Source: a virus. Taken from it: a stretch of 53,316 nt of DNA. The position numbers and the translations under genes were made by a program. Each line of letters opens with the position of its first letter. The first letter of the stretch is position 1. The notes under the pieces are model-generated. The model was not told where the DNA came from. It made no database searches and saw nothing but the letters and a program-made list of their open reading frames with translations. The DNA lies in the IMG/VR virus record IMGVR_UViG_3300032007_000120. The stretch is one strand, 5' to 3'. Below are positions 1-53,316 of the stretch, piece by piece.

Positions 1-127
1 AGCATGACGCGGACGTGGAGAAGCGGTTAAGAGACGAGAATCGCAGACATCTGGACGAGATTCGGAAGAAATGCGACCACAGAAAATGCGGAGAAAGTCT
101 GAAAAGGATCATGAAGATCGAGGAACT
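1..127. repeat. Terminal overlap copy A (identical to 53190-53316)
   Basis: Read directly: agcatgacgcggacgtggag...gaagatcgaggaact occurs at both window ends. The exact 127-bp length suggests a circular-contig assembly overlap. Confidence 0.9.
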
Positions 128-14184: not shown

Positions 14185-14574
14185 CTATTTGATGTTCAAG
14201 TATGCTTTCAAGTCTCTGGCGATCTCTATGCAGTACTTGAATCTGTTCACGTCTCCGTTCGGTGTCTCCATCGAGATCCCTGCGGTCTGGAGAGTCTTCA
14301 CTTCTCTGTCGGTGAGATGGCGGACTGCGATCTGGTAGTATTCCTCTGGAGCGATCCAGATCATGTTTGCCAATATACGCAGGAGTGAATCGCGGAAGTC
14401 CTGCTTCCTTTCCTCTTCCTTGTGTCTCTGGACGCGACTCTTGTTCATCTTTGCCCAGACCTTGCAGAACTCGTCCTTGTCGAGGTCGGAATTCATGTAG
14501 ACTTCGTTGATGTGAGCGAACTCGTCAGCGGTGACGTTCATCTGTACTCTGGTTTGAAATTCTTGCTGTAACAT
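14185..14574 (-). CDS. Hypothetical protein (129 aa), first gene of leftward unit 1
   Basis: Start moved to the ATG at 14574 (MLQQEFQ...). The longer track ORF would run through its own promoter and operator. Confidence 0.55.
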   Translation of the reverse strand: MLQQEFQTRVQMNVTADEFAHINEVYMNSDLDKDEFCKVWAKMNKSRVQRHKEEERKQDFRDSLLRILANMIWIAPEEYYQIAVRHLTDREVKTLQTAGISMETPNGDVNRFKYCIEIARDLKAYLNIK

Positions 14575-14599
14575 ATTGCTTAATTTTTTAATGACACCG

Positions 14600-14633
14600 C
14601 AAAGATAGGACATATTTGCGAAATATGTCCTAA
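14600..14633 (-). promoter_or_regulatory. Leftward promoter (-7 box TAtcTTTG, 14600-14607) fused to the palindromic operator AGGACATATTT-gcg-AAATATGTCCT (14607-14631)
   Basis: Same palindrome-plus--7-box arrangement as 13302-13335. Both leaders contain attaagcaat. Confidence 0.65.
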
Positions 14634-14682
14634 AACGGAGAAGGAAACGCGTTTTATTAATAATAATTAACAGAAATATTTG

Positions 14683-14697
14683 GTGCTTAATAAGCAC
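14683..14697. promoter_or_regulatory. GTGCTTAATAAGCAC palindromic motif, copy 2 of 3
   Basis: Perfect 7-bp arms, 18 nt upstream of the -7 box at 14716-14723. Confidence 0.5.
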
Positions 14698-14715
14698 TGC
14701 AACATTTTTTTGCAT

Positions 14716-24949: not shown

Positions 24950-27826
24950 ATGAAGGAACGGACAAAGAACGAGATAGCAATCAAGAGAACGGTGAACGGA
25001 GCGACTAAGACCGTTGCAATCGTACCTATAACGGAGGACTCGACGCGCACGTTCTCACTCATGAGCGAGGACAATATTACGCTTGTCTTCGAGACGGTGA
25101 AGCCTATCTTCTTCCGTCTGGGAGACTTCATCGACGACGAGTTGTTCGGAGAGTTCGTCATTACGGATCTGGCGAATATGCCTTCCTACGACACAGAGAC
25201 TGGCGCGTATCGTTACAACCTGCAGTTCGACGCTGACTACTTCCTCTGGAAGAACAAGATCTGCAAGTACATACCAGACGCGGAAGCGAAGGAGACATCA
25301 TTCACTCTGACTGCGAACATCGAGACTCACTGCGACGTGATCGTCCGCAACCTCACTGCACTTGGATTCAAGCATGGCGGAAAGTACTACACCGTCAACT
25401 ATACGACGTACAACATCAACGACGTGATCGACACAGAGAAAGCAGAACTGGTGTCTTATGACTCTGTCAGTATCTACGACGCTATCTCCGCAATCGCGGA
25501 AGCCTTCGACTGCGAGTGGTGGGTGGACGGATCGGTGATCTTCTTCGGAACTTGTCAGAACGCAGGACAGACCGTCTTCCAGTTAGGAGACAACGTCTCG
25601 GATATGAGTCGGTCTGGCACGACGGAGAAGGCTGCGTCAAGAGTCTATTTCTTCGGATCAGACAAGAACCTTCCGACGACATACCGCCAGTCTGGGACTA
25701 CACCAGACGTTACTCATGACGGAGTCGTCCAGAAACGTCTAATGCTACCTGCGACCACCTATCCTTACGGCTATATGCAGGACGCGGAAGTCGAGACAGA
25801 GGATCAAGCAGTCGAAAAGGTAGTCGTATTCGACGACATCTATCCAGTAACTCGACTGAAAGTTAGTCGAATTTCGACTTATACAAGTACGAAAACAGAC
25901 GACACGACTGGAGAGACCTATTCGCAGACGTTCTGGAGAGTGAAGGAAGACTCCGACTTCCTCAAGAACTTCACGAAGGACATGATCATCGACGGACTGA
26001 CGCTACACATCGTATTCACGTCTGGAGTCCTCAACGGAATGGACTTCGAGTGCGTTCTGGTCACAGACGACTCAACGATCGGAAAATGCTTCGAGATCGT
26101 CTCGAACGACACCTATGGCAGGGATCTGCCAGACTCGGTGTTGTGTCCGTCCGCAGGCGACGAGTTCTGTCTGTATAACTGGGACGCGACAAAAATGTCC
26201 TCTCTGGGACTTGTAGAGAAGGCGGAGACGACGCTTGCAGAGCGCGCGGTGGAATACTTCAAGCAGTCGAAGATCGACGCGTCTACGTACACTGTCACGC
26301 TTTTCAGCGAGTACGCATACAACAGCGGAACGTTCAAGTACTTTCTTGCAGGAGACCAGATCAAACTGATCAACGGAGCGTACTTCACACAAGTCGACTC
26401 TGACGGAAACCACTACAGACTCTCCAGAATCATCGGCTTCGAGTTCAAACTGGACAAACCTTACGACTCTCCGCAGTACACTCTCGGAGAGAAACCAGAG
26501 AAGTCGAACACGATGAAGTCTATGCAGGAGACGATCGACTCCATCAAGGTCAACGGAGCAACCTACATCAACCAGACTGGATCTGGATCTGGCGGAACGT
26601 CAGTCTACGTGATCGGAATGAGTGACAACACTCTGGCGACGGACGCGAATGTCTATTCCGCTCGTCGCTCTGATCAGCAATACCTGCGCAAGGATCGCGA
26701 CGACACCGCTAACGGAACGATCTCCTTCAAGAAGCAGGACATTCACTCCGACGGACTCCAGATCGGTGACTCTTACGTAGGTGGGCAGGCAGGTATCGGA
26801 GGACGTATCGACAAAAAAGGCGCAGCAGAACTGGAATCCATGTCCCTGCGATCCTTCTTGGAAGCACCAGAATATAGATTCAACAAGATCGACATCTTCG
26901 TGGGCAACCAGTGGAGGGCGAGCGGTGGCGGAGTCATAGAGTCAGTCACTCCAGACACCAAAAACGACGGAACGACCGCGACAACTGGCATTGCAGTACT
27001 CCATCTGGAGGACGGAGCGATCGGGCATATAGACGTGGACGACATCTGTCAAGGTATCTACCATGACGGAATAACGCTCTCAAACAATGATACGGTGGAT
27101 CTGGACGACTCCTACGGAAACTTCAAGTTTGCAGGATTCTTCACTTCGTACTTCCGTATCACAGAGATACTGGAGTCTGACGGAGTCAACAAGAAATTCA
27201 GATACGCGCTGCGTAATGACGACGACTGGAAAGCATTACATCACCCAGTCGCGTTAATGCACTTCGTCTGCTACGGAAACTTCTCGAACACGAAACGTCA
27301 GTCAAGCAGATACTCTACTCTCACTTACGAACGCTATCTCACTGGTGTCAACACGTGGAAGTTCTCCGCAGCCAACATCGCAGCGCAGGAAGGCGATCTT
27401 TCGAATCTCTCGGTGTTCGGTCTGAACATGACTGGTTACTCCGCTTACTACAACAACATCTATCTGTCTGGAGCGATCAAGCAGATCGAGGATCTTCCGT
27501 ACCGCATAGAGTTCGACACTCATGGCTACGACATCTTAAGTTTCGGAGAGGTCATGGTTCTGGACTGCTACGTCTACAAGGGATTCACAGACAAGACGAG
27601 TACAGTCAAGACGTGGAAGATAACGAGAGACACTGGAGACTCCACAGAGGACGCTTCATGGTTACTCAAGGACAAGGTCAAAAACTTCTCTGGAGAGATA
27701 ACGATCAGTTTCACGAAGGACGAGAACGACCTATCTACGAATGACAAGGTAATAACGACATTATTCACGATCACTGCATACGGAGAGGACGGAGAAGAGA
27801 TCGCGAATGGAACTCTAACATTATAA
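24950..27826 (+). CDS. Tail hub/tail-associated (Tal-like) protein
   Basis: 958 aa. Second gene after the tape measure, which is the canonical siphovirus order. Confidence 0.5.
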   Translation: MKERTKNEIAIKRTVNGATKTVAIVPITEDSTRTFSLMSEDNITLVFETVKPIFFRLGDFIDDELFGEFVITDLANMPSYDTETGAYRYNLQFDADYFLWKNKICKYIPDAEAKETSFTLTANIETHCDVIVRNLTALGFKHGGKYYTVNYTTYNINDVIDTEKAELVSYDSVSIYDAISAIAEAFDCEWWVDGSVIFFGTCQNAGQTVFQLGDNVSDMSRSGTTEKAASRVYFFGSDKNLPTTYRQSGTTPDVTHDGVVQKRLMLPATTYPYGYMQDAEVETEDQAVEKVVVFDDIYPVTRLKVSRISTYTSTKTDDTTGETYSQTFWRVKEDSDFLKNFTKDMIIDGLTLHIVFTSGVLNGMDFECVLVTDDSTIGKCFEIVSNDTYGRDLPDSVLCPSAGDEFCLYNWDATKMSSLGLVEKAETTLAERAVEYFKQSKIDASTYTVTLFSEYAYNSGTFKYFLAGDQIKLINGAYFTQVDSDGNHYRLSRIIGFEFKLDKPYDSPQYTLGEKPEKSNTMKSMQETIDSIKVNGATYINQTGSGSGGTSVYVIGMSDNTLATDANVYSARRSDQQYLRKDRDDTANGTISFKKQDIHSDGLQIGDSYVGGQAGIGGRIDKKGAAELESMSLRSFLEAPEYRFNKIDIFVGNQWRASGGGVIESVTPDTKNDGTTATTGIAVLHLEDGAIGHIDVDDICQGIYHDGITLSNNDTVDLDDSYGNFKFAGFFTSYFRITEILESDGVNKKFRYALRNDDDWKALHHPVALMHFVCYGNFSNTKRQSSRYSTLTYERYLTGVNTWKFSAANIAAQEGDLSNLSVFGLNMTGYSAYYNNIYLSGAIKQIEDLPYRIEFDTHGYDILSFGEVMVLDCYVYKGFTDKTSTVKTWKITRDTGDSTEDASWLLKDKVKNFSGEITISFTKDENDLSTNDKVITTLFTITAYGEDGEEIANGTLTL

Positions 27827-27830
27827 GACT

Positions 27831-29039
27831 ATGGAAACTTCGAAGAAAAGAGTAAGAATTGACTATGCTCCACTGAACGTCGCGGTGTCTCTGGTCTGTC
27901 TGACCTCTGGTTCTCCGCTGACGCAGGTGTTCAACGCTAAGGCAAACACCTACGAGCCTAATAGAGAGTTGACTCCTACGGTGATCAAGCCAAATGTCAC
28001 GATCAACGCGAACGATGGCAGTATCAAGACACCTTACGGAAACTCCATGCTCGCAAGCATGAAGTGGTTCGTCAACGGTACGGACATCTCTACACTGGAC
28101 GAATGGAAGAACAAGTACACGATCCTCACAGACGGAGCGAACAGAGGTAGCATTCAGATCTCGAAGAACGTCGAGGTCGAGAAGGTCTACAGCCTGCACT
28201 TCGAAGCAGAGGTGGCAGACAGACGACTGGGTGTCAACATACCTATCAAGACGGATTCAGTCAATTTGTCCACAACGGACAAGTCAGAGACGGACTACTC
28301 TCTGTCTGTTCTGGAAGATCCAGTGATCATCTACAATCCGTTTCTTGACAAACTACTTGCGTATGATTACAAGGTCGCTCATGGGCTTATCACTGCGTCC
28401 TCTGACGCACGCAACGAGGCTCTGGACGTGAATTCCTACGAACGGACGATACCTATCTATCTGTATCGTGGCGCAGGACTCTCGGAGAACTCTTATACGG
28501 TGAAAGTCTTCAAGATCAACAGCGATAAAACAGAGACAGAAATCACCGCTGCAGACGACAACGAGTTCAACGAGATCGCTTACGATCACATCACGATGGA
28601 TCTGCGAATGGTCACGAAGCAGGACTATATGTTACGCGCTTACGTCGACGGAAAGAACGTGGATCAATGGCAGTTCTCCGTCGGCAGGGTCTATCCAGAC
28701 TATAGGATCAGAGGAACAAACGGAACGTCCATCGCACCTACGGACACAGACCGCTACGACAAAGCAATGGTGGACTGCGACGGAAACATCGTCGAGAACG
28801 CGGAGAATATCATCTCCATACTCTGGTACACTGCGACTGCAAGCAATAGCAGGGTGCAGCATAACGAAGGCGGAGAGACGCTATATACGCTCGAATCCAC
28901 TGGCATAGGAAAAGACTATAACAACGACTGGCTCGACGAATGGACGGAGAGCGGACAAAAGGAAGAATATTCCGTTGCTCTGGACGAGTCTGGCAACGAA
29001 CTTGTCGACGAAAACGGAGACACATTAATCATAAACTAA
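27831..29039 (+). CDS. Baseplate/tail fibre module protein
   Basis: 402 aa. Assigned by position only. Confidence 0.4.
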   Translation: METSKKRVRIDYAPLNVAVSLVCLTSGSPLTQVFNAKANTYEPNRELTPTVIKPNVTINANDGSIKTPYGNSMLASMKWFVNGTDISTLDEWKNKYTILTDGANRGSIQISKNVEVEKVYSLHFEAEVADRRLGVNIPIKTDSVNLSTTDKSETDYSLSVLEDPVIIYNPFLDKLLAYDYKVAHGLITASSDARNEALDVNSYERTIPIYLYRGAGLSENSYTVKVFKINSDKTETEITAADDNEFNEIAYDHITMDLRMVTKQDYMLRAYVDGKNVDQWQFSVGRVYPDYRIRGTNGTSIAPTDTDRYDKAMVDCDGNIVENAENIISILWYTATASNSRVQHNEGGETLYTLESTGIGKDYNNDWLDEWTESGQKEEYSVALDESGNELVDENGDTLIIN

Positions 29040-29040
29040 T

Positions 29041-29259
29041 ATGCAGTATATCATCGCAAACAAGAGCAAGGCGATTCCGAAAGGCTTCACCGTCATGGGT
29101 CACAGAACGCATGGAGACAAGATTCTGCTCAATGAGAAGGAGATTTTGGACTCTAACGAACTCACTGGAGACCTCAATGAAAGGGCAAAAGAGATAGACG
29201 GTATCGTTTATTCAGAGCCTAAAGTTATCAACGTAATACAAATGGAGGGCTGGAAATGA
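29041..29259 (+). CDS. Hypothetical protein (72 aa)
   Basis: ORF coupled to its neighbours within the tail module. Confidence 0.4.
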   Translation: MQYIIANKSKAIPKGFTVMGHRTHGDKILLNEKEILDSNELTGDLNERAKEIDGIVYSEPKVINVIQMEGWK

Positions 29260-30293
29260 GCAAAAGTTATTCCGCACAAGGTTCAATAACCATCAAGCGA
29301 CTCCGCAGCGGAGATACGTTGTATATCTCTTTCGACACGAACGGAAAACCGCTATATCAAGGTGTAGACACGACGAAGACTGGCAAGGTTACTCCAGACT
29401 GGACGGTAGCAGCAAATCAGCCAGTACGTATTCCGAACATCACTACCATCAAAGGACAGACGGTGTCAGTATCTAACCACCAGTGGAAACACAACGGAGT
29501 CGTACTGACATTCAACGGAGACACCGACGGAGAATACATCAAGGATTCTACTGGCAAGTTCGAAATGAATCCAAGCAATGGAGCAATCAAGATCATTGCA
29601 AATCTTGCGTCGAAAACCAACTACGCGAACGACTCTCTGGAATATTCCTGCGTCGCTACGCTTGCAGGTGTCGAGTACAACCTCTCGAAGTCAACGGACA
29701 TCATTATCCAGAGCGTAGGCGCGTCGTCATATAATGGCATGGTCTGGGCAATCACAGAGCAACTGACTGGATCTGTAACTTCTACAAAAGTCTACTCTCA
29801 GTTGACACTGGCAGGATCTAACATTTCTTCATACGTCAAGTGGTACAAGAACTCCGTAACAACCAACAACGCATGGACGGATAAGAACGGGAAGAGTGAG
29901 ATTGACGTTACACGCGACGACGTGAACGGAACTACTCTCTTTATTGCAGAGTTCTATCTTGCTTCCACTGATACCACTCCAGTATTCAGAGCAGCCTGCA
30001 GGATCAAGGACGCAGCAGACGACTTCCAGATCGTCTACTACATCTCTTCGGACAACAAGACCGTAGACAAAGGAAAGGACGTGGAGGTAACTGGAAAGAT
30101 CGTGAACATGAGAACGAACTCCGAAGTCACTGCGTCTTCCGCATCGTGGAAAACCTACGTCATGGACAAGAAGAACTGGACACCGACACAGACGGTATCT
30201 TCCAACGTTGTAACCGTCACAACTGCGGACACCGACACAGACGCAGGAGAGAACGACGTGGAAGTGACTGGAGAGGTCAACTGGGACGAGTAA
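29256..30293 (+). CDS. Tail module protein, beta-rich (345 aa)
   Basis: Thr/Ser/Val/Asn-rich composition. Assigned by position. Confidence 0.4.
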   Translation: MSKSYSAQGSITIKRLRSGDTLYISFDTNGKPLYQGVDTTKTGKVTPDWTVAANQPVRIPNITTIKGQTVSVSNHQWKHNGVVLTFNGDTDGEYIKDSTGKFEMNPSNGAIKIIANLASKTNYANDSLEYSCVATLAGVEYNLSKSTDIIIQSVGASSYNGMVWAITEQLTGSVTSTKVYSQLTLAGSNISSYVKWYKNSVTTNNAWTDKNGKSEIDVTRDDVNGTTLFIAEFYLASTDTTPVFRAACRIKDAADDFQIVYYISSDNKTVDKGKDVEVTGKIVNMRTNSEVTASSASWKTYVMDKKNWTPTQTVSSNVVTVTTADTDTDAGENDVEVTGEVNWDE

Positions 30294-30326
30294 TCAACTT
30301 TATAAACAACAATAAAACAGAAGAAA

Positions 30327-31607
30327 ATGAGTAAGAAAAGTCTTGCAACTGCTACTGCGGTGACATCAATGCTAAAAACGAACTCAATCGTCGTTGAGAT
30401 AGGAGGATCTATCCGTCGTATCACTCTGGACAACTTCATGAACGCGATACAGACTGGCGCGCTTGAACTCCGCCAGTATGCGTGGGGTGTGCCTATCATG
30501 CAGAGTAAGCAGTTCTCTCCTGCGTGGGGACGCGTCGGAAATCTGGATATGTGGGCAGAGTACAAGTCACAGATGGGACGTTACCTGCTGACGAACAACG
30601 GACTTATGGCAAAACTCTCCGCCAGTGACTCTACAAAGTTCGCGGACGGAACAACGGTGGACGAGACCAAAGGTCACGTCGTTTTTCATGCTCCAAGACT
30701 CTACTATCTGGTCAAGGAGGACTCCATAACTGGTGTTCCTTATCTCTGGGGTAGTATGCAGCCTATCTCTGGACACTACATCGAAGCACCTACGATCGGT
30801 GCGTACAAAGGTTATGTTCTGAACAACAAACTGGTGTCTCGTTCTGGCTACGCTCCGACTGGCAGTAAGACCATCAACGATTTCTGGAATGCAGCAAGAG
30901 CCAACGGAAACAACTTTGGTCTGACTAACTACGACCATCGTCGTTTTATGAAGATGATCTCGCTCTTCGAATTCGGAAATACCAACGATCAAGAAAATGT
31001 CGGTTATGGTTGTTGCGGTGACGGAAATACTTGGGATAAGACAAACGGTCTGCTCACTGGCGCAACCGCATCTCTGGGAGACGCTTGCGGATCTATAGAC
31101 ATCAGCAGCGTTGCAGGAAACTCCAAGTCTTCTCGCGTCAACTTATTCGGTATCGAAGATCCTTGGGGTTGGCAATGGGAGTTTACGCAGGGTATCTACT
31201 GCGGTAACTCTGGCAACGACGCGCAGTCTGGAAAAGAAGTATTCATCTATCAAGGAAACAGACTTCCATCTGACTCCGAACTCAAGACGACACCTTCTGG
31301 AGACTTCCGCCAGTTGACACGTATTGCTACTTCTACTGAAGGTTGGATAGGAGAGGAAACTCTCGGAGAATACTTCGATCTCATTCCTACAAGACATGGA
31401 GGTGATAGTAACAGCTACTGGTGCGATTATCACTGGGGCAACACTACTGGTCAAGTCGTTCTGTTTGGCGGTTCTGCGCGCGACGGTGCGGGCTGCGGTC
31501 TCGCTTTCGTCCGCTCGCATACCGCGTGGTCGGCCGCGTGGACGGCTTACGGCTCTCGCCTTGCTTATTATGGTACACCCACAATAGTGAACGGAGCAGA
31601 CTTGTAA
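30327..31607 (+). CDS. DGR target protein (tail fibre/receptor-binding candidate) with a C-terminal variable region
   Basis: 426 aa. The last ~50 codons contain VR 31454-31567. The C-terminus WGNTTGQVVLFGGSARDGAGCGLAFVRSHTAWSAAWTAYGSRL resembles C-type-lectin-fold DGR variable proteins. Confidence 0.85.
   Translation: MSKKSLATATAVTSMLKTNSIVVEIGGSIRRITLDNFMNAIQTGALELRQYAWGVPIMQSKQFSPAWGRVGNLDMWAEYKSQMGRYLLTNNGLMAKLSASDSTKFADGTTVDETKGHVVFHAPRLYYLVKEDSITGVPYLWGSMQPISGHYIEAPTIGAYKGYVLNNKLVSRSGYAPTGSKTINDFWNAARANGNNFGLTNYDHRRFMKMISLFEFGNTNDQENVGYGCCGDGNTWDKTNGLLTGATASLGDACGSIDISSVAGNSKSSRVNLFGIEDPWGWQWEFTQGIYCGNSGNDAQSGKEVFIYQGNRLPSDSELKTTPSGDFRQLTRIATSTEGWIGEETLGEYFDLIPTRHGGDSNSYWCDYHWGNTTGQVVLFGGSARDGAGCGLAFVRSHTAWSAAWTAYGSRLAYYGTPTIVNGADL
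31454..31567 (+). repeat. DGR variable repeat (VR)
   Basis: 114 bp aligned to the TR at a constant offset of +261. There are 18 mismatches, all opposite TR adenines. Confidence 0.92.
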
Positions 31608-31643
31608 AGCAGAGAGTAATTAAGTAAGCCAAGTCTTCTGGCG

Positions 31644-31682
31644 GTCGGTCGCGCGGACGCAAGGGAGCGCGACCCGACTTTT
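31644..31682 (+). terminator. GC-rich hairpin plus TTTT between VR and TR
   Basis: Stem gtcggtcgcgc / gcgcgacccgac with one bulge, a 12-nt loop, then tttt. Confidence 0.6.
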
Positions 31683-31714
31683 GGAGCAAAAAAAACAAGG
31701 TGGAGAGAAACAAG

Positions 31715-31828
31715 AGTCGTTCTGTTTGGCGGTAATGCGAACAACGGTGCGAACTGCGGTCTCGCTTACGTCAACTCGAATAACGCGTGGTCGAACGCGT
31801 GGACGAATTACGGCTCTCGCCTAACTTA
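31715..31828 (+). repeat. DGR template repeat (TR)
   Basis: Non-coding copy of the VR containing 25 adenines, 18 of which differ in the VR. In the VR frame it reads VVLFGGNANNGANCGLAYVNSNNAWSNAWTNYGSRLT (AAY-codon design). Confidence 0.92.
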
Positions 31829-32023
31829 GATATTAATCGCTGCGGTCGTCAAGTTGATGTTCTTTCAATACTGACGACGGACGAGTTTCTCAAACCGCGA
31901 CGACAAAGAGAAATCTGTAAGTCGAAAAATATATGCAGGAAAGTCCTACGACTTGCACGAATAGGACAAGCAGTGTTAGTAACCATCAATGGAGAACGCT
32001 CTGGGCGGAGAAAATAAGCAAGC

Positions 32024-33547
32024 ATGAAGACAACAAAGAACGTGATAGATCAGATCGCAGACAGAACGAATCTGGAGATCGGAGCGGACGACGCACGCAC
32101 AGCGGTACGGAAGCAGCACTCCGTCAAGCGGAGGAAAGAGAAGAATGAGAAAAACAAGGAAAAAGAATACGACTGGAGACCGACGTTCATCAAAAGGTTC
32201 GACGAGAACAAAACCGAATATATGGACGCGATCCAGAACATGGTCATACTGGGAGTATATCCTGCGAAGGAATATCACGCAGTTACACATCATGCAGTCG
32301 ACAAGGACAGAGTAATCTATCCACAGCCTTTCTATCCTTGGTCAATACTTTTCCATACTGTAAAGAACGTCATAGAGCCTATAGTTGAGAAGAATCTCAT
32401 TCTGGACACGTCTGCAGGAAGAAAAGAAAAAGGGCAGACATTATGCGAGAAACGCATGAGAATGTTCGTGAGACGTTATCCAGAGTATAAATGGTTCGTC
32501 AAGATCGACTTGAGGAAGTTCTATCCTACATTACCACATCGAGAGGTAATTGCAGCGTTAAGAAGTATCATCAAAGACGATCTGTTCATGAACTTGATCG
32601 AGAACACAATGCTCGACTATGAGTCTGACATGGTAGATCTCCTGCAAGAGGAAGTCAAGAAGAAGGAATTATGCAAATGGAGATCCACAGAACCACTGCC
32701 AGACTGGTACTGGACTTGCAAACGAGGAATAACGATCGGATCTTGCATCTCGCAGATCATCGGGAATCTGGTTCTCTCCAGAGTCGATCACAAGTTCAAG
32801 GAGGTATATAAATGTAAGGTCTATCACAGACACTGCGACGACATCGTGATTCTGGCACATACGAAAGAGGAAGCGTACTACTATTTCAATCGCATGGACT
32901 ATGAGATGAACCAGATCGGAATGTGCGTCAAGGCTTCATCAATAATCGCTCCAATAGAAGACGAGGAAGATATATTTAACAACGGACGCAAGATAGACTT
33001 CTGCGGATATGTCTACACCAGACACAACGTCGGAATGCGAAAGCGTAACAAGGTACGCTGCGCGAAGGCACTCCACAGAGTGAAGTCCAGAAAGCGAAGG
33101 CAGGAGATACTTGCTGCATACTACGGAATAGCGAAGTGGGGAAACTGCAGAAATCTATGGCGCGTCCTAACTGGTAAGAATATGAGTTTCGCGGATCATG
33201 GTATTAAGACAGAGGTGGTGAGTCGTGCAAAGGACGGAAAGCGGTTCTTCGATTGCCCAGAAACAACGCAGGCACAACTTGCGCAGGACGAGACAGACAT
33301 CATCATTTATGACTTCGAAGACGGTCTAACAATAAACGGAAAATCGAACAAGTGTGCGATCCTATTCAGAAACATCTCTGACAAGGACAACACTCGGAGA
33401 AAGTTCATCACGTCGTCTTCCAGAATCATCGACAAACTGAACAAGGCTCGCGACATGGAGAAGAATGGAGAGAAGATCTTTCCACAGCCTACGAAAGTTT
33501 TCGAGGTGCGTCTGAAAGGCGGACGTTATACATACGATATTGAATAA
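32024..33547 (+). CDS. DGR-type reverse transcriptase (extended, 507 aa)
   Basis: RT motif A: FVKID(162)LRKFYPTLPH. DGR-signature motif: ITIGSCISQIIGNLVLSRVDH. Catalytic box: YHRH(270)CDDIVIL. Lies 195 nt downstream of the TR. Confidence 0.88.
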   Translation: MKTTKNVIDQIADRTNLEIGADDARTAVRKQHSVKRRKEKNEKNKEKEYDWRPTFIKRFDENKTEYMDAIQNMVILGVYPAKEYHAVTHHAVDKDRVIYPQPFYPWSILFHTVKNVIEPIVEKNLILDTSAGRKEKGQTLCEKRMRMFVRRYPEYKWFVKIDLRKFYPTLPHREVIAALRSIIKDDLFMNLIENTMLDYESDMVDLLQEEVKKKELCKWRSTEPLPDWYWTCKRGITIGSCISQIIGNLVLSRVDHKFKEVYKCKVYHRHCDDIVILAHTKEEAYYYFNRMDYEMNQIGMCVKASSIIAPIEDEEDIFNNGRKIDFCGYVYTRHNVGMRKRNKVRCAKALHRVKSRKRRQEILAAYYGIAKWGNCRNLWRVLTGKNMSFADHGIKTEVVSRAKDGKRFFDCPETTQAQLAQDETDIIIYDFEDGLTINGKSNKCAILFRNISDKDNTRRKFITSSSRIIDKLNKARDMEKNGEKIFPQPTKVFEVRLKGGRYTYDIE

Positions 33548-33575
33548 ATCATCATCAACTTAAAAAAGTAACACT

Positions 33576-33980
33576 ATGAAGGTATTCACTATTCTGGAAA
33601 ATGGCATTCCTACAGATGGAATCAACACCGTAGAGGAAGGATCTCTACTCCGTATCTACTTCGACTATGCAGTGTATGACATGGCGCAGACAGACGAATC
33701 TGGCAACGAGACGAAGGTCGAGAACTCCTATTCCTGCGAGAACGTGGACATCGACGGGAAGAGAGACTATTCTTCGATCGTTGCAGCAATCGTCTCAAGC
33801 AAGTACTCTAACGACGACGTTACTGCTATCATCGCGAACAAGGCTCTGGCTGACGACTCGACATCTGACATCACCGACGCGAAGCGGACGGAATATCAGA
33901 CAGAATACACCAACTTCCAGACATGGCGCAGTCATGCTAAGGAGGTGGCGGACAAGGTGATCAGCAAACTGGAGTCTTAA
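33576..33980 (+). CDS. Acidic hypothetical protein (134 aa)
   Basis: ORF between the RT and the next fibre gene. D/E/T-rich. Confidence 0.5.
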   Translation: MKVFTILENGIPTDGINTVEEGSLLRIYFDYAVYDMAQTDESGNETKVENSYSCENVDIDGKRDYSSIVAAIVSSKYSNDDVTAIIANKALADDSTSDITDAKRTEYQTEYTNFQTWRSHAKEVADKVISKLES

Positions 33981-33999
33981 GCAATAAAATCAGAAGGAA

Positions 34000-35802
34000 A
34001 TGGTAAATAGGTCTGCACAAGGTCATTTGACGGTGGTCAGACAGCGCAACGGCAAGGACGGAAGCACTGGCAATGGTATCAAGACCATCGTCAAGGAATA
34101 CTATAAGTCTACGTCTTCTATATCTCTTGTGGGCGGATCATGGTCTACAGACGTACCGACGTGGACGAACGGAACATACATCTGGACGCGTGATCATATC
34201 ACCTACACAGACGGAACGGAAGTCTACACGAATCCAGTAAACACGACTGGAGCGCAGGGAGCGCAGGGAGAGCAGGGTGCGATACTACGTCTATCAGAAT
34301 GGAACGCGAACGTACCGCGAGAGTATCTGGCAGGCAATCGAGGGGAGAAATATCATGACGTGATCGTCTACAATGACAACTTCTACGACTGCATTCTCTC
34401 GCATATCTCGTCCACCACAACTCCAGACCAAGACACTACTCACTGGAAGCAGGGAGACCAGAGAGACTTCGTCGCGACTAAAGTACTGCTCGCGCGGAAC
34501 GCTCTGATCAAGATTCTGGCAAGTAACCAGATCACCGTCTACGACAACGACGGAAACGTCTCTGGAGGTATGCAGGGAAATCCTGCAATTCCTATCTTCT
34601 GGGCAGGCGCGGAGAATCCATCATCTGGAGCATACCAACAGAATATCGACGGAAGCGCGACGTATGGAAATCCGCAGGGAGAACACATTCTTCTCGATCC
34701 TGCAGGAAAGACCATCAAGTTCTTCAACTCAAGCAACCAGTTCGTAACGGAGCATAACGCGAAGACATTCTCTAATCTGTCTTCGATCCTTCCTGCAGGA
34801 TGTACGGTCACTCTGTCAAGCAGCAACACTCTGGTAACGATCAATCCAAGCGTAGATAGGATCTGGTACGGAGTGCAGGGTACTGACACCAGTTACTTCA
34901 CAAGCGTCTGGGCTGCATCTGCGAACGGTATTCTGACGGTCAACATGAACCAGATGTTGGTGTCGATTACGACGGAGTATCATAGCAACCAGAATGTCGG
35001 AGGATTGGCAACCGTATCACTCTGCCTATACAGATACAGCGACTCTGCAGGCACGAAGCAGTCTGCGAGATCCATTCTATACACTTTGACGCGACAAGGT
35101 AAGAACGACGGAGCAGCATGCCAGTCAATAGAGAATAACTTCCATGTATCGACTCGCATCTATTCTGGAGGTTACTATCGTCTGGGTGTCGAACTCTCCT
35201 ATTTCGGTGGAGGATCAAGCAACGTCTCGACCTGCTTTGCGAAGTACAACGCTCTGTCTGCTTCGATCGAGTCTGACGTTTATTCGAATATGTTCTTCGG
35301 AAACGGATTGGTCTTGTCAAAGTCTACAGATAACTACTTCGCAGCAATGCTTGAGAACTCGACAAATATGAGAATGGCGATCTCTAACTCAAGTTACGGA
35401 CTGGACGTGAGCAACGGGAACGGAGTAATGATGAAGAAGGGAACACTCTGGCATAAGCAAATGATTACTCTCTTCGCTATGCGGATCACTGGCTATTCGA
35501 CTGGTGTCTCCATCATCTGCAAGAGCAATGCCACCTTTAACCCGAATACTACGTCGGCAACGACGAACGCAGGATCGGTCTACAGAGTCAAGGAAGGTGT
35601 CTATCGCATCTATTTTCCGACCGCGTGGTCTACTTATAAGATAGGTACTAACGGAGTCTGCTTCGTTACCGCTATCGAGAACGAGACTACCCACGGTTGG
35701 TTGGCGCGCGTCTATGAGATCACCGACACCTACGTAGAGGTATGCACGTCGGACGACCGTTCTCCGAACGAGGGAAAATTATTTGTCGAACTTAAAATAT
35801 AA
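34000..35802 (+). CDS. Tail fibre protein
   Basis: 600 aa. Short collagen-like run TGAQGAQGEQGA, with a beta-rich remainder. Last structural gene before the lysis cassette. Confidence 0.6.
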   Translation: MVNRSAQGHLTVVRQRNGKDGSTGNGIKTIVKEYYKSTSSISLVGGSWSTDVPTWTNGTYIWTRDHITYTDGTEVYTNPVNTTGAQGAQGEQGAILRLSEWNANVPREYLAGNRGEKYHDVIVYNDNFYDCILSHISSTTTPDQDTTHWKQGDQRDFVATKVLLARNALIKILASNQITVYDNDGNVSGGMQGNPAIPIFWAGAENPSSGAYQQNIDGSATYGNPQGEHILLDPAGKTIKFFNSSNQFVTEHNAKTFSNLSSILPAGCTVTLSSSNTLVTINPSVDRIWYGVQGTDTSYFTSVWAASANGILTVNMNQMLVSITTEYHSNQNVGGLATVSLCLYRYSDSAGTKQSARSILYTLTRQGKNDGAACQSIENNFHVSTRIYSGGYYRLGVELSYFGGGSSNVSTCFAKYNALSASIESDVYSNMFFGNGLVLSKSTDNYFAAMLENSTNMRMAISNSSYGLDVSNGNGVMMKKGTLWHKQMITLFAMRITGYSTGVSIICKSNATFNPNTTSATTNAGSVYRVKEGVYRIYFPTAWSTYKIGTNGVCFVTAIENETTHGWLARVYEITDTYVEVCTSDDRSPNEGKLFVELKI

Positions 35803-35808
35803 TAAGGT

Positions 35809-36189
35809 ATGAGAAGTTTATCTGATAAGAGGCTGATCGTGCAGTGCGCGATCAACGGAGAGGTGGCACGATTTCTTCTGGACACTGGCGCAAGCGTAGG
35901 TCTGATCAACTATCGCGAGCGTAAGAGATACCAGATCAAGGTCGGCAGACGTTTTCCGACAAAACTGGTGGGAGCAGGCGGAGATCTGGACGCGTATTAC
36001 TGCAATACGTTCGTCTGGTTTCAGAACCGCCAGATCGCGCAGTTCTTACTTGCGGACATCAACAACGTCGTGGAATCCATCAAGCAGGAGACTGGGATCG
36101 AGATACAAGGAATCATCTGTCTGCAACAGATGAAAGACGTGGGTATCGACATCGACGCTAACTCAAACGACATTTCTATAGAGGACTGA
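35809..36189 (+). CDS. Retropepsin-like (clan AA) aspartic protease
   Basis: 126 aa. Active-site motif FLLDTGASVGLI, a flap-like VGAGG and the C-terminal IQGIICLQQM (GILG-like) motif. Confidence 0.65.
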   Translation: MRSLSDKRLIVQCAINGEVARFLLDTGASVGLINYRERKRYQIKVGRRFPTKLVGAGGDLDAYYCNTFVWFQNRQIAQFLLADINNVVESIKQETGIEIQGIICLQQMKDVGIDIDANSNDISIED

Positions 36190-40432: not shown

Positions 40433-40462
40433 CTCTTCATAGTCTTATAGTTGAATTTTGAC
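40433..40462. repeat. 30-bp direct repeat copy B
   Basis: Covers the last codons and stop of the repressor gene and includes a copy of the lipoprotein start region. Confidence 0.9.
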
Positions 40463-41110
40463 GGATAGTATATTCTCAACGATGAACAACTTGCGGATCT
40501 TGTCTTTCCGCATAGTTATGTCGTCGTAGTTTGGGTTCGCGGAGCGTAGCAGGAAGTAATGATCTTCGTCCTGCTCATACTTGCGAACGTACTTAATCAT
40601 ACGATACTCACTTGTCACAACGACGTAGATCTGTCCGTAGAAAACGTCGTCAAAGTCATAGACCTCTCGGATAGCGATCCAGTTACCATCGCAGATGGTC
40701 GGGATCATGGAATCTCCGTTGGCGCGAATGATCTTGCAGTCACGCGAGATGTTCGGAAGATCTATCGAACCGATCACAATATCATCAGTGAAGTCAATGT
40801 CGCGCGGATTCTTTCCGCACGTCGCGTCAACGTCATAGACGAGTATTCCGTTGCGGTTCGGCTGCACCTGCACGACTTGCGGAGGGTCGTTCGTGGAGTT
40901 CAAGATCATTTCTCCTTCACCGTAAAGCAGCCAGTCGCGGTTAAGGTCTGGAAACGCGGTCAGAACATTGTTCAGTTTCTCGCGACCGAATCCTTTTCTC
41001 ATTGAGGTGACGTAACCAGTTGACAATCCGCACATTGATTCAAAGTCCTTCATTTTAAGTCCCTTGTATTCAATGAAATCTTTCACTCTATCTTTAATCG
41101 TCTTTTCCAT
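40445..41110 (-). CDS. CI/LexA-like repressor (N-terminal HTH plus C-terminal S24 peptidase)
   Basis: 221 aa. HTH with DWLLYGEGEM. S24 motifs: ANGDSMIPTI (Ser nucleophile) and MIKYVRK (Lys). Confidence 0.85.
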   Translation of the reverse strand: MEKTIKDRVKDFIEYKGLKMKDFESMCGLSTGYVTSMRKGFGREKLNNVLTAFPDLNRDWLLYGEGEMILNSTNDPPQVVQVQPNRNGILVYDVDATCGKNPRDIDFTDDIVIGSIDLPNISRDCKIIRANGDSMIPTICDGNWIAIREVYDFDDVFYGQIYVVVTSEYRMIKYVRKYEQDEDHYFLLRSANPNYDDITMRKDKIRKLFIVENILSVKIQL

Positions 41111-52865: not shown

Positions 52866-53316
52866 GTTGGGAGTTATACATTCCGCCAGCCGTCAAGCAG
52901 AAGCGCACAAGTGTACGGATTACGCAAGAGCAGCGTCAGTTCATCATCGACCATATCAATGACAGACCGCGGAGAAAGATAATAGAGCAGGCGCAGGTCA
53001 GTCTTGCTACGTTCTACCAGATCGTGAAGGAGAATGGCGGACAGATAGACCACTCGCTCTCGACGCGCAACAGAGATCTGGAGAAGTTCATCATCGAGAA
53101 CTTCTCGCGAATGTCTACGACGGAGATCATGCAGCATACTGGCGCGCTCCGCTCGCGTATCAATCGCATCGCGAAGGAACACCATCTCAAGCATGACGCG
53201 GACGTGGAGAAGCGGTTAAGAGACGAGAATCGCAGACATCTGGACGAGATTCGGAAGAAATGCGACCACAGAAAATGCGGAGAAAGTCTGAAAAGGATCA
53301 TGAAGATCGAGGAACT
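52862..53316 (+). CDS. Putative DNA-binding/regulatory protein, N-terminal part (continues at 128..344 after circularisation)
   Basis: The ATG at 52862 overlaps the previous stop (ATGA), and the ORF stays open to the window end. HTH-like segments: RRKIIEQAQVSLATFYQIV and STTEIMQHTGALRSRINRIAK. Confidence 0.6.
   Translation, partial: MSWELYIPPAVKQKRTSVRITQEQRQFIIDHINDRPRRKIIEQAQVSLATFYQIVKENGGQIDHSLSTRNRDLEKFIIENFSRMSTTEIMQHTGALRSRINRIAKEHHLKHDADVEKRLRDENRRHLDEIRKKCDHRKCGESLKRIMKIEE
53190..53316. repeat. Terminal overlap copy B (identical to 1-127)
   Basis: Read directly. Confidence 0.9.

What the first reader, a model, noticed from the sequence alone, without database searches (positions are those of the whole stretch)
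31608..33980. Non-canonical DGR parts list: no Avd-like gene, a 507-aa RT with extra N- and C-terminal regions, and HCDD instead of YxDD
Characterised DGRs usually carry a small, basic, four-helix Avd gene next to the TR. Here the VR-TR gap (107 nt) and the TR-RT gap (195 nt) hold no credible ORF, and the 134-aa protein after the RT is strongly acidic. The RT core runs from motif A (D162) to the thumb at about residue 370. It is flanked by a ~100-aa N-terminal region containing a Lys/Arg/Glu-rich stretch (VKRRKEKNEKNKEKE) and a ~140-aa C-terminal domain I cannot assign. The catalytic box reads YHRH(270)-C-D-D, with His where RTs normally have Tyr/Phe. The extensions may substitute for Avd in RNA binding or priming, which would be an undescribed DGR variant.
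Basis: partly seen in the sequence, partly recalled or inferred. Interest (0 to 1): 0.65.

Follow-up and report, generated by a model that had tools for sequence, protein, structure and literature searches.

The report
Active phage DGR that lacks Avd
This is a working diversity-generating retroelement in a 53-kb cattle-gut phage, of the already described Avd-less type found in Bacteroides-type phages. Its less-studied parts are a His in the catalytic box, an extra C-terminal domain on the reverse transcriptase, a conserved small acidic gene and a structured spacer RNA, which make it a good model for how such elements work without Avd.

Summary
The VR (31454-31567) and TR (31715-31828) differ only at TR adenines. 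No Avd gene lies in the cassette or anywhere in this closed circular genome. The RT is 507 aa and reads H270-C-D-D where BPP-1 bRT has YMDD. It also carries about 120 extra C-terminal residues.

Two points are wrong. The "N-terminal extension" aligns to residues 3-100 of BPP-1 bRT, so it is ordinary; only a disordered Lys/Glu insert is extra.

"Undescribed variant" is not supported. Wu et al. 2018 described Avd-less DGRs (26% of DGRs; lineage 3; target-TR-RT; a small acidic accessory gene, CH1; C-terminal RT extensions in about 20%). HCDD is fixed across a whole clade (39 of 40 protein clusters).

The element is active in nature. In two bovine-gut metagenomes the otherwise clonal 53-kb assembly splits only at the VR, and 18 of 19 variable sites are TR adenines.

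New here:
- The C-terminal domain has no PDB match and weakly resembles phage ssDNA-binding proteins.
- That domain can also be a separate ORF.
- The TR-RT spacer holds a covarying two-hairpin RNA.

Verdict: a new member of a known kind, of moderate interest.

The parts
30327..31607 (+). DGR target gene (426 aa), a phage tail or receptor-binding protein. The VR forms its 3' end.
   Evidence: ORF. phrog_5302 'tail protein', E 1e-45. The syntenic LoVEphage-type homologue is annotated as a tail protein with an Mtd_N domain.
31454..31567 (+). Variable repeat (VR)
   Evidence: It differs from the TR only at TR adenines. In runs X2 and X3 it is the one place where the clonal contig splits into alternative unitigs, and 18 of 19 variable sites are TR adenines. 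It is the only VR in the genome.
31644..31683 (+). GC-rich hairpin (arms 31644-31654 and 31667-31678) followed by TTTT, just after the target stop codon. It may be a terminator, a DGR target-site hairpin, or both.
   Evidence: Read directly from the sequence. Its 12-nt loop exceeds the limit of the terminator scan. The function is inferred only.
31715..31828 (+). Template repeat (TR), 25 adenines
   Evidence: It is identical in sister contigs whose VRs differ.
31890..31973 (+). Conserved structured RNA motif inside the 195-nt TR-RT spacer (31829-32023). It has two covarying hairpins joined by invariant single-stranded stretches (..GCRGAAAG.. and ..CAAGC..).
   Evidence: Hand-defined structure on A9: 94.8% of cells paired against 33-48% when partners are slid, and 8 of 11 pairs compensatory. 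Model R1 finds it upstream of the RT in 20 further loci that were not used to build it. Over 24 distinct sequences, 96.3% of cells are paired and 60 are compensatory. No Rfam family matches.
32024..33547 (+). DGR reverse transcriptase, 507 aa, pI 9.3
   Evidence: Pfam RVT_1 and phrog_1423. AF2 model pLDDT 89.6. Best PDB fold match is BPP-1 bRT 8ub7_A, E 4e-16, TM 0.83 over the target. Profile against bRT gives E 5e-44.
32129..32179 (+). Lys/Arg/Glu-rich insert (residues 36-52), a disordered loop between two N-terminal helices
   Evidence: pLDDT about 53, with segments below 50. Absent from most homologues in A2.
32735..32755 (+). DGR signature motif I238-G-S-C-I-S-Q244 ([I/V/L]GxxxSQ). I238 corresponds to bRT I181.
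   Evidence: Alignment to bRT. Motif definition and the role of I181 are from PMC7826257.
32831..32842 (+). Catalytic box H270-C271-D272-D273, equivalent to bRT Y-M-D-D
   Evidence: C271, D272 and D273 are invariant in A2. His is found in 39 of 40 clusters of the near clade and Tyr in the hankyphage-like clade.
33179..33544 (+). C-terminal domain of the RT (residues 386-507), an alpha/beta domain beyond the thumb
   Evidence: AF2 domain model pLDDT 94. No PDB sequence or fold match: best fold hit E 0.58. BFVD: other RTs carrying the same domain, then phage ssDNA-binding proteins at TM about 0.5. 350 cluster representatives at E<=1e-3. Encoded as a separate ORF in L170, L171 and L172.
33576..33980 (+). 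Small acidic ORF (134 aa, pI 4.3), a CH1-like candidate accessory gene
   Evidence: An acidic ORF of 114-165 aa follows the RT in 80 of 83 loci. Searching from the ORF side, 76 of 79 loci have the RT upstream, 71 of them within 70 nt. No Pfam, PHROG or PDB match.

Best explanation
This is a functional phage DGR of the Avd-less kind (Wu et al. lineage-3 type, order target-VR-TR-RT) that diversifies a tail or receptor-binding protein.

Shown here:
- The TR differs from the VR only at adenines.
- The RT is a true DGR RT. It has the bRT-like fold and N-terminus, the IGxxxSQ motif, and equivalents of bRT R74 and I181.
- The HCDD enzyme works: VR alleles differing at TR-adenine positions coexist in single natural samples.

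Inferred mechanism:
- The TR and its 195-nt spacer are transcribed as one RNA.
- The conserved two-hairpin spacer RNA docks on the RT, as the Sp RNA does on bRT-Avd.
- cDNA is made with misincorporation opposite adenines and replaces the VR.
- The scaffolding and nucleic-acid-holding roles that Avd plays in BPP-1 are taken over by lineage-specific parts: the C-terminal domain fused to the thumb (possibly binding single-stranded nucleic acid) and/or the small acidic protein encoded just after the RT.
- His270 is a clade-fixed replacement of the YxDD tyrosine. It is compatible with activity; any effect on fidelity is unknown.
For: - VR and TR differ only at TR adenines.
- Activity in situ: in runs X2 and X3 the circular 53,118-nt contig is interrupted only at 31449-31579 by alternative 131-nt unitigs. 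18 of 19 variable positions are TR adenines.
- A sister strain with a 97%-identical RT has the TR conserved (112 of 114 nt) but a different VR, with all 17 mismatches to its own TR at adenines.
- Every locus of the HCDD clade with an ungapped VR/TR alignment shows 11-21 mismatches at adenines, with at most one exception each.
- RT identity: bRT is the best fold and sequence match. K94/R96 correspond to K72/R74, and I238 to I181, within IGxxxSQ.
- No Avd or HRDC match in the closed genome.
- Known precedent for this architecture.
- The C-terminal domain is conserved from this RT to the hankyphage RT. It occurs fused or as a separate adjacent ORF.
- Acidic ORF linkage.
- Spacer RNA covariation.
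- A metatranscriptome contig covers 31560-32100.
Against: - No experiment shows which part, if any, replaces Avd.
- The acidic protein (pI 4.3) is unlikely to bind RNA as basic Avd does.
- The hankyphage counterpart of the acidic ORF carries DUF4376, a domain of unknown function that I recall mainly from phage tail-fibre proteins (from memory, not checked). The gene also persists in L126, where the RT is deleted. It could therefore be a tail gene.
- The fold similarity of the C-terminal domain to ssDNA-binding proteins is weak: TM about 0.5, and PDB E above 0.5.
- crAss-like relatives lack the C-terminal domain altogether, so it cannot be a universal Avd substitute.
- Lineage-3 placement rests on homology to hankyphage and crAss-like RTs. 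I built no tree against Wu's reference set.
- The structure used for the RNA model was derived from the same sequences, and the larger alignment is fitted to the model.
- The run data are assembly unitigs, not raw reads.
Confidence: 0.8

Rival explanations
1. One reading: this is an undescribed DGR variant in which N- and C-terminal extensions of the RT replace Avd in RNA binding or priming.
For: The C-terminal domain is real, conserved and unassigned. It weakly resembles ssDNA-binding proteins. It can be a separate ORF beside a short RT, as an accessory protein would be.
Against: Avd-less DGRs and C-terminal RT extensions were described in 2018. The N-terminal region equals the bRT N-terminus. 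The Lys/Glu stretch is a disordered, lineage-specific insert. crAss-like Avd-less RTs lack the C-terminal domain.
Confidence: 0.25
2. The small acidic ORF is a tail-fibre assembly or structural gene that travels with the target gene. It is not part of the retrohoming machinery, and the RT plus RNA alone suffice.
For: The hankyphage-type ORF matches Pfam DUF4376 (E 1e-6), which I recall mainly from phage tail-fibre proteins (from memory, not checked). A second DUF4376 gene sits among downstream genes in L173. The ORF is kept in L126 without an RT, and lies upstream of the target in L150. It always sits between the RT and the next tail gene.
Against: It follows the RT, usually within 70 nt, across hankyphage-, LoVEphage-, crAss- and window-type RT lineages. 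Wu et al. found CH1 only in DGRs without avd, HRDC or MSL.
Confidence: 0.35
3. An Avd is supplied in trans by the host or another prophage, or is too divergent for HMMs to detect.
For: [quoted passage not shown] I scanned about 55 predicted proteins with Pfam, and only the 43 small ORFs with NCBIfam as well; the host genome is unknown.
Against: No hit in the closed genome. Wu's profile search found no remote avd for avd-less DGRs. The whole lineage, spanning several RT sub-lineages that include hankyphage, LoVEphage and crAss-like phages, lacks it.
Confidence: 0.1
4. The cassette is a decaying, inactive DGR, and His in place of the catalytic-box Tyr is an inactivating change.
For: Tyr is the norm in YxDD. 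Broken RT genes are common among relatives.
Against: Adenine-site VR polymorphism occurs within single samples. HCDD is fixed in 39 of 40 clusters with full-length ORFs, and their VRs are diversified.
Confidence: 0.03

Closest known systems
Avd-less DGRs of Wu et al. 2018: lineage 3/3A, architectures A1 (target-TR-RT) and E1 (with CH1), PMC5758913
   Same: No avd. Order is target-VR-TR-RT on one strand. The hosts and phages are Bacteroides-related. A small acidic ORF with no motif lies directly after the RT. The RT has a C-terminal extension with no recognised motif.
   Different: The acidic ORF here is 134 aa, against 160-169 aa for CH1, and is only indirectly linked to the hankyphage-type ORF (hhalign: window type to crAss type E 2e-7; crAss type to hankyphage type E 5e-4; window to hankyphage none). 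The catalytic box is HCDD rather than YCDD. There is an extra insert of about 35 aa at residues 198-232. I built no tree against Wu's set.
Hankyphage (Bacteroides phage p00, BK010646) DGR
   Same: The RT is homologous over residues 62-504, including the C-terminal domain (27% identity). The layout is the same, with a 161-aa acidic ORF after the RT.
   Different: YYRYCDD-type box (FYRYCDD in p00 itself), a 434-aa RT, a very large target protein, and a DUF4376 acidic ORF. The spacer RNA motif R1 was not detected there.
LoVEphage / Bacteroides phage BI-TP1 DGR (MW660583, PQ571265)
   Same: Closest annotated phages. They share the synteny of tail genes, target, TR, RT and a 131-aa acidic ORF that is clearly homologous to the window's. 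They also share the spacer RNA motif.
   Different: The RT reads LHRYCDD and is split over three frames in all records. RT identity is only about 41%. There is no nucleotide-level match.
Bordetella phage BPP-1 DGR (bRT-Avd-RNA RNP, PDB 8ub7)
   Same: RT fold, N-terminal extension, IGxxxSQ motif, R74/I181 equivalents, adenine-specific mutagenesis of a tail-fibre VR, and a structured RNA downstream of the TR.
   Different: BPP-1 needs pentameric basic Avd and has an Avd-binding stem-loop. Here there is no Avd, the box is HCDD not YMDD, and there is an extra C-terminal domain and an acidic ORF. The published survey of conserved RNA elements covered only DGRs with Avd.
crAss-like phage DGRs (crAssphage LMMB, PMC7290462; cr50_1 etc.)
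   Same: Avd-less TG-VR-TR-RT cassette, assigned to lineage 3. The RT is homologous over residues 1-392. It is followed by a 115-aa acidic ORF homologous to the window's.
   Different: These RTs are about 346 aa and lack the C-terminal domain. Their box is Y[HY]R[YH]CDD.

Membership tests
Diversity-generating retroelement (DGR) | A TR/VR repeat pair whose differences fall at TR adenines | tested here: met
   18 of 18 differences at adenines over 114 nt. 86 of 86 non-A positions identical.
Diversity-generating retroelement (DGR) | RT of the DGR clade with the [I/V/L]GxxxSQ motif and catalytic aspartates | tested here: met
   GITIGSCISQ (I238-Q244). D162, D272 and D273 are invariant. Best match is BPP-1 bRT.
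Diversity-generating retroelement (DGR) | VR at the 3' end of a target gene encoding a ligand-binding (C-type lectin or Ig) domain | tested here: inconclusive
   The VR is at the 3' end of a tail protein (phrog_5302), and a homologue is annotated with an Mtd_N domain. The C-type lectin fold itself was not modelled. No PDB sequence hit.
Diversity-generating retroelement (DGR) | Ongoing adenine-directed hypervariation of the VR | tested here: met
   Alternative VR unitigs within runs X2 and X3, with 18 of 19 variable sites at TR adenines. VRs differ between near-identical strains.
Canonical (BPP-1-type) DGR, architecture B | An avd gene (small, basic four-helix-bundle protein; Pfam PF05635 / TIGR02436) next to the TR | tested here: not met
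   No ORF in the 107-nt and 195-nt gaps. No Avd-family hit in the Pfam scan of about 55 proteins of the closed genome, or in the NCBIfam scan of the 43 small ORFs.
Avd-less DGR lineage 3 (Wu et al. 2018) | No avd, HRDC or MSL; core order target-TR-RT | tested here: met
   Definition.
Avd-less DGR lineage 3 (Wu et al. 2018) | RT falls in the lineage-3 clade of the reference RT tree | not tested
   Indirect only. The RT is homologous to hankyphage and crAss-like RTs, and the crAss-like RT was placed in lineage 3 by Morozova et al.. Wu's reference sequences are not held.
CH1 accessory gene (Wu et al. 2018) | Small acidic protein (160-169 aa, pI about 4.7) with no motif, flanking the RT in avd-less DGRs | tested here: inconclusive
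   The position and charge match: 134 aa, pI 4.3, starting 29 nt after the RT. The size is smaller. Homology to the 161-aa hankyphage ORF is only indirect. CH1 sequences are not held.
MutS_I / MSL-like C-terminal extension | Similarity of the RT C-terminal extension to the MutS mismatch-binding domain | tested here: not met
   Pfam at E<=1 gives no MutS_I. There is no significant PDB profile or fold hit, and MutS is not among the listed matches.
OB-fold / phage ssDNA-binding proteins (for the C-terminal domain) | Significant structural match to a solved ssDNA-binding fold | tested here: inconclusive
   PDB best hits are Pf3 SSB (E 0.58) and PRD1 P12 (TMq 0.40). BFVD predicted phage SSBs give E 3e-3 to 8e-2 at TM 0.46-0.55.

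The most novel reading that the evidence does not exclude
Avd-less phage DGRs use a different accessory apparatus from BPP-1. It would consist of an ssDNA/RNA-binding module that is either fused to the RT thumb or encoded as its own ORF, a small acidic partner protein, and a dedicated two-hairpin spacer RNA. In one large clade the catalytic Tyr has also been replaced by His, possibly retuning dNTP selection. This cattle-gut phage is active in situ and would be the natural system in which to define Avd-independent mutagenic retrohoming.
Probability: 0.3. Interest if true: 0.6.

Novelty: new member of a known kind. Interest (0 to 1): 0.4.

Why it matters
Mechanistic knowledge of DGRs comes largely from the BPP-1 bRT-Avd-RNA complex. 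The published survey of conserved DGR RNA elements covered only DGRs that have Avd. About a quarter of DGRs, including those of hankyphage, LoVEphage and crAss-like phages, have no Avd. In the library searched here, only Wu et al. 2018 uses the term "Avd-independent" for DGRs, and only as an inference.

This locus supplies a compact parts list for such an element, backed by evidence of activity. It offers concrete, testable candidates for the missing function, and a natural HCDD catalytic variant of possible interest for engineered DGR mutagenesis tools. As a discovery it is incremental, because the architecture itself is already catalogued.

Tried and rejected
- Megablast of the cassette against 50,697 phage records found no match. 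Relatives appear only at protein level.
- C-terminal domain:
  - Pfam found nothing.
  - A PDB profile search found nothing.
  - A PDB fold search found nothing significant.
  - MutS_I, suggested by Wu et al. for three RTs, was not found.
- Acidic ORF: no Pfam, PHROGs or PDB hit. Direct profile-profile comparison with the hankyphage DUF4376 ORFs gave no link.
- The k-mer-seeded homologue search for the acidic ORF gave only 9 hits, so I searched IMG/VR by pattern instead.
- Most of the roughly 105-aa "stand-alone" hits to the C-terminal domain are gene-calling products of frameshifted RTs or RTs with an in-frame stop (L168, L173). Only L170, L171 and L172 look like real separate ORFs.
- Folding the spacer alone is not distinctive (z -1.04). 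MAFFT plus RNAalifold misaligned the 3' half, so only the two 5' hairpins were modelled. A third nested stem seen by eye was not tested.
- Rfam has no match.
- Supplements of Wu et al. are not held, so CH1 and the lineage-3 reference sequences could not be compared.
- No second VR or remote target exists in the genome.
Full report
WHAT IS THERE

The window is a complete phage genome. Its first and last 127 nt are identical. In two bovine-gut metagenomes the same sequence assembles as a circular contig of about 53.1 kb. Genes at 24950-36189 form a tail module.

Inside that module lies one DGR cassette, all on the + strand:
- a 426-aa tail protein (30327-31607, phrog_5302), whose last 114 nt before the C-terminal tail form the VR (31454-31567);
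- a 107-nt gap after the stop codon, containing a GC-rich hairpin and a T-run (31644-31683);
- the TR (31715-31828);
- a 195-nt spacer;
- the 507-aa RT (32024-33547);
- 28 nt later, a 134-aa ORF (33576-33980, pI 4.3);
- then a 600-aa tail-fibre-like protein.

The VR and TR differ at 18 positions, all of them TR adenines. All 86 non-adenine positions of the 108-nt core are identical. No other copy exists in the genome.

No Avd: confirmed. The two gaps have the stated sizes and hold no credible ORF. The scans were:
- Pfam and NCBIfam on 43 small ORFs from across the genome;
- Pfam and/or PHROGs on about 18 further proteins and protein segments around the cassette.

None gave a hit to the Avd family (PF05635, TIGR02436) or to HRDC. 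In the Pfam run, four weak families (E above 0.026) were not displayed.

N-terminal region: not an extension. A profile of 36 homologues aligns to BPP-1 bRT (PDB 8ub7) starting at bRT residue 3. Window K94/R96 fall on bRT K72/R74. R74 is one of the two residues shown to promote adenine mutagenesis (PMC7826257). The bRT N-terminal extension is itself a known RNA-contacting element. Only the Lys/Arg/Glu stretch (residues about 36-52) is extra. It is predicted to be disordered (pLDDT about 53) and is absent from most relatives.

RT identity. The RT carries the DGR signature [I/V/L]GxxxSQ as I238-GSCIS-Q244, with I238 equivalent to bRT I181. The whole-protein AF2 model (pLDDT 89.6) has bRT as its best structural match (E 4e-16, TM 0.83 over the target).

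HCDD: confirmed. H270 aligns with the Tyr of bRT YMDD, and C271, D272 and D273 are invariant. It is not a private mutation.
- 39 of the 40 90%-identity clusters closest to this RT that show the box (41-97% identity, 366-590 aa, nearly all 476-523) read HCDD, and one reads FCDD.
- The more distant hankyphage-like clusters read YCDD.
- The full-text library holds no paper pairing "HCDD" with reverse transcriptase in this sense.

C-terminal domain: confirmed as extra, about 120 aa (386-507). bRT ends where the thumb ends. The domain is conserved from this RT to LoVEphage and hankyphage RTs.

IS THE ELEMENT ALIVE?

Yes.
- In runs X2 and X3 the 53,118-nt contig matches the window with no differences, except that it breaks at 31449-31579. 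There the region is represented by alternative 131-nt unitigs of comparable depth carrying 11-17 differences. Of the 19 variable positions, 18 correspond to TR adenines.
- A strain whose RT is 97% identical has an almost unchanged TR (112 of 114 nt) but a different VR, and all 17 mismatches to its own TR lie at adenines.
- Every locus of the HCDD clade with an ungapped VR/TR alignment shows 11-21 mismatches at adenines, with at most one exception each. VRs differ among near-identical phages.
- A metatranscriptome contig covers 31560-32100, spanning the TR, the spacer and the start of the RT.

So an HCDD RT without Avd supports mutagenic retrohoming in nature. The caveat is that these are assembly unitigs, not raw reads.

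- In 80 of 83 loci carrying a relative of this RT (the window, hankyphage, LoVEphage and 80 IMG/VR loci), the RT is followed within 83 nt or less by an acidic ORF of 114-165 aa (pI 4.3-5.4).
- 53 of the 54 distinct sequences form one BLASTP-linked set.
- Searching IMG/VR from the ORF side, independently of the RT, 76 of 79 loci have the RT upstream, 71 of them within 70 nt. One exception is a contig edge.
- The window type is clearly homologous to the LoVEphage type and to the crAss-like 115-aa ORF (hhalign E 2e-7). The link to the hankyphage 161-aa ORF is weak (crAss type to hankyphage type E 5e-4; window to hankyphage none).
- The hankyphage ORF matches Pfam DUF4376 (E 1e-6).

This gene fits the description of CH1 in Wu et al. 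2018: small, acidic, without a motif, and found only in DGRs lacking avd, HRDC and MSL, within Bacteroides lineage 3A. I could not compare sequences because the supplements are not held.

Its role is open. DUF4376 is a domain I recall mainly from phage tail-fibre proteins (from memory, not checked). In addition, L126 keeps the ORF after losing the RT, and L150 has it upstream of the target. Both points favour a tail-related role.

THE C-TERMINAL DOMAIN

Modelled alone, it is confident (pLDDT 94) and mixed alpha/beta. It has no PDB sequence match and no significant PDB fold match. The best hits, at E above 0.5, are the ssDNA-binding proteins Pf3 SSB and PRD1 P12.

Against predicted viral structures, it matches other RTs bearing the same domain, followed by many small phage proteins annotated as ssDNA-binding at TM about 0.5. 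This is a lead, not an assignment.

A profile search of 1.84 billion cluster representatives finds 350 members. Typically the domain sits at the C-terminal end of RTs of 410-583 aa. Many hits of about 105 aa are artefacts of broken RT genes (L168, L173).

Three loci do encode it as its own ORF:
- In L170 and L172 a 328-aa YADD-type RT ends and the domain ORF starts in another frame, overlapping at an A-run.
- In L171 the domain ORF follows an acidic ORF.

Fusion in some lineages and separation in others argues that it is a functional partner of the RT. crAss-like RTs lack it, so it is not universal among Avd-less DGRs.

THE SPACER RNA

Spacers of RTs only 43-51% identical share invariant single-stranded motifs and two hairpins whose sequences covary.
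- On seven sequences, 94.8% of cells pair, against 33-48% when partners are slid. 8 of 11 pairs show compensatory change.
- A covariance model built from these finds the motif upstream of the RT in 20 further loci, including LoVEphage types, but not in hankyphage types.
- Over 24 distinct sequences, 96.3% of cells pair, with 60 compensatory cells.
- The window copy is at 31890-31973.
- Rfam has nothing here.

Caveats: I derived the structure from these sequences, and the larger alignment is fitted to the model.

By analogy with BPP-1, where RNA downstream of the TR wraps bRT and Avd and primes cDNA synthesis, this is the likely RT-docking and priming RNA. That is inference.

COMPARISON WITH WHAT IS KNOWN

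Wu et al. 2018 (PMC5758913) already reported the following:
- 74% of DGRs have avd, so 26% do not.
- A profile search found no remote avd in those genomes.
- Architecture A is TR-RT with no accessory gene.
- Lineage 3A is restricted to Bacteroides and relatives and carries CH1.
- About 20% of DGR RTs have C-terminal extensions of up to about 150 aa without recognisable motifs.

The crAss-like DGR has the same avd-less layout and was placed in lineage 3. The hankyphage cassette has the same layout. The locus is therefore a new member of a described kind.

What I could not find described in the library searched:
- the clade-wide Tyr-to-His change;
- the nature and split/fused distribution of the C-terminal domain;
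- the breadth of the acidic-ORF linkage beyond the 14 CH1 cases;
- the spacer RNA motif.

Handa et al. surveyed RNA elements only in DGRs with Avd.

VERDICT

The mechanism of adenine mutagenesis and VR replacement is as in other DGRs: sequence signatures and in-situ variation are shown here, while the chemistry is inferred from BPP-1. Which component stands in for Avd is not known. My ranking is:
- the structured spacer RNA plus the RT itself as the core;
- the C-terminal domain as a probable nucleic-acid-holding module (about 0.4);
- the acidic protein as a retrohoming cofactor (about 0.4) against a tail-associated protein (about 0.35).

Interest is moderate at 0.4. It is useful as a tractable, demonstrably active model for Avd-independent retrohoming, but it is not a new kind of system.

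Noticed in passing
L002 4782-6325; L050-L078; GenBank MW660583, PQ571265, PQ571302, OY725593: The LoVEphage-type DGR RT gene is split over three overlapping reading frames (ORFs of 180, 106 and 194 aa) in about 28 IMG/VR contigs and six GenBank genomes. Yet 21 distinct VRs occur among 24 contigs, with 11-26 mismatches each, nearly all at TR adenines. The DGR looks active, which suggests programmed frameshifting or a multi-piece RT rather than a dead gene.
   Followed up: partly
window 35809-36189 (+): A 126-aa retropepsin-like aspartyl protease (Pfam Asp_protease_2, E 9.5e-8; gag-asp_proteas, E 4e-7) lies between the tail-fibre gene and the holin/lysin genes. It is conserved in sister contigs L165-L167. 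This is an unusual gene for a tailed phage.
   Followed up: no
window 1-127 and 53190-53316: The two ends are identical over 127 nt, and Logan contigs of 53,118 nt close on themselves. The window is a complete circular assembly of 53,189 bp, seen in bovine-gut metagenomes.
   Followed up: yes
window 31732-31812 (TR core): Assembly depth is about three times that of the rest of the genome in runs X1 and X2. Several other contigs align only here, with 4-10 differences, so other DGR elements in the same samples share this TR core.
   Followed up: no
window 32615-32719 (RT residues about 198-232): An insert of about 35 aa lies between RT motifs A and B, with a conserved Cys-x-Trp. It is well ordered in the AF2 model. 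It is present in the HCDD clade and in the nearest Tyr-box relative (P0042), and absent from hankyphage-like RTs and from bRT.
   Followed up: no
L173 296-1660: This RT has a single in-frame stop codon inside the thumb, while the rest, including the C-terminal domain, stays in frame. It could be stop-codon recoding or a recent pseudogene.
   Followed up: no
L170 1215-1250; L172 1-100: A 328-aa YADD-type DGR RT ends, and the C-terminal-domain ORF begins in another frame, overlapping at AAAAAATG. This arrangement is seen in two divergent contigs. It indicates either translational coupling of two genes or a frameshift fusion.
   Followed up: partly
window 14185-14715, 40445-41110 and other small ORFs (exact ORFs not resolved): Family scans of the small ORFs report dUTPase, ThyX, an S24/LexA-like peptidase, an excisionase-type HTH and an HTH matching the MADS1 defence-system regulator (NF047737, E 2.8e-10). 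This suggests a temperate lifestyle. The tool output did not say which ORF gave which hit.
   Followed up: no
L126 2083-3000; L150 2761-4078: There are exceptions to the RT-acidic ORF linkage. L126 keeps the target and the acidic ORF but has lost the RT. L150 has the acidic ORF directly upstream of the target gene.
   Followed up: partly
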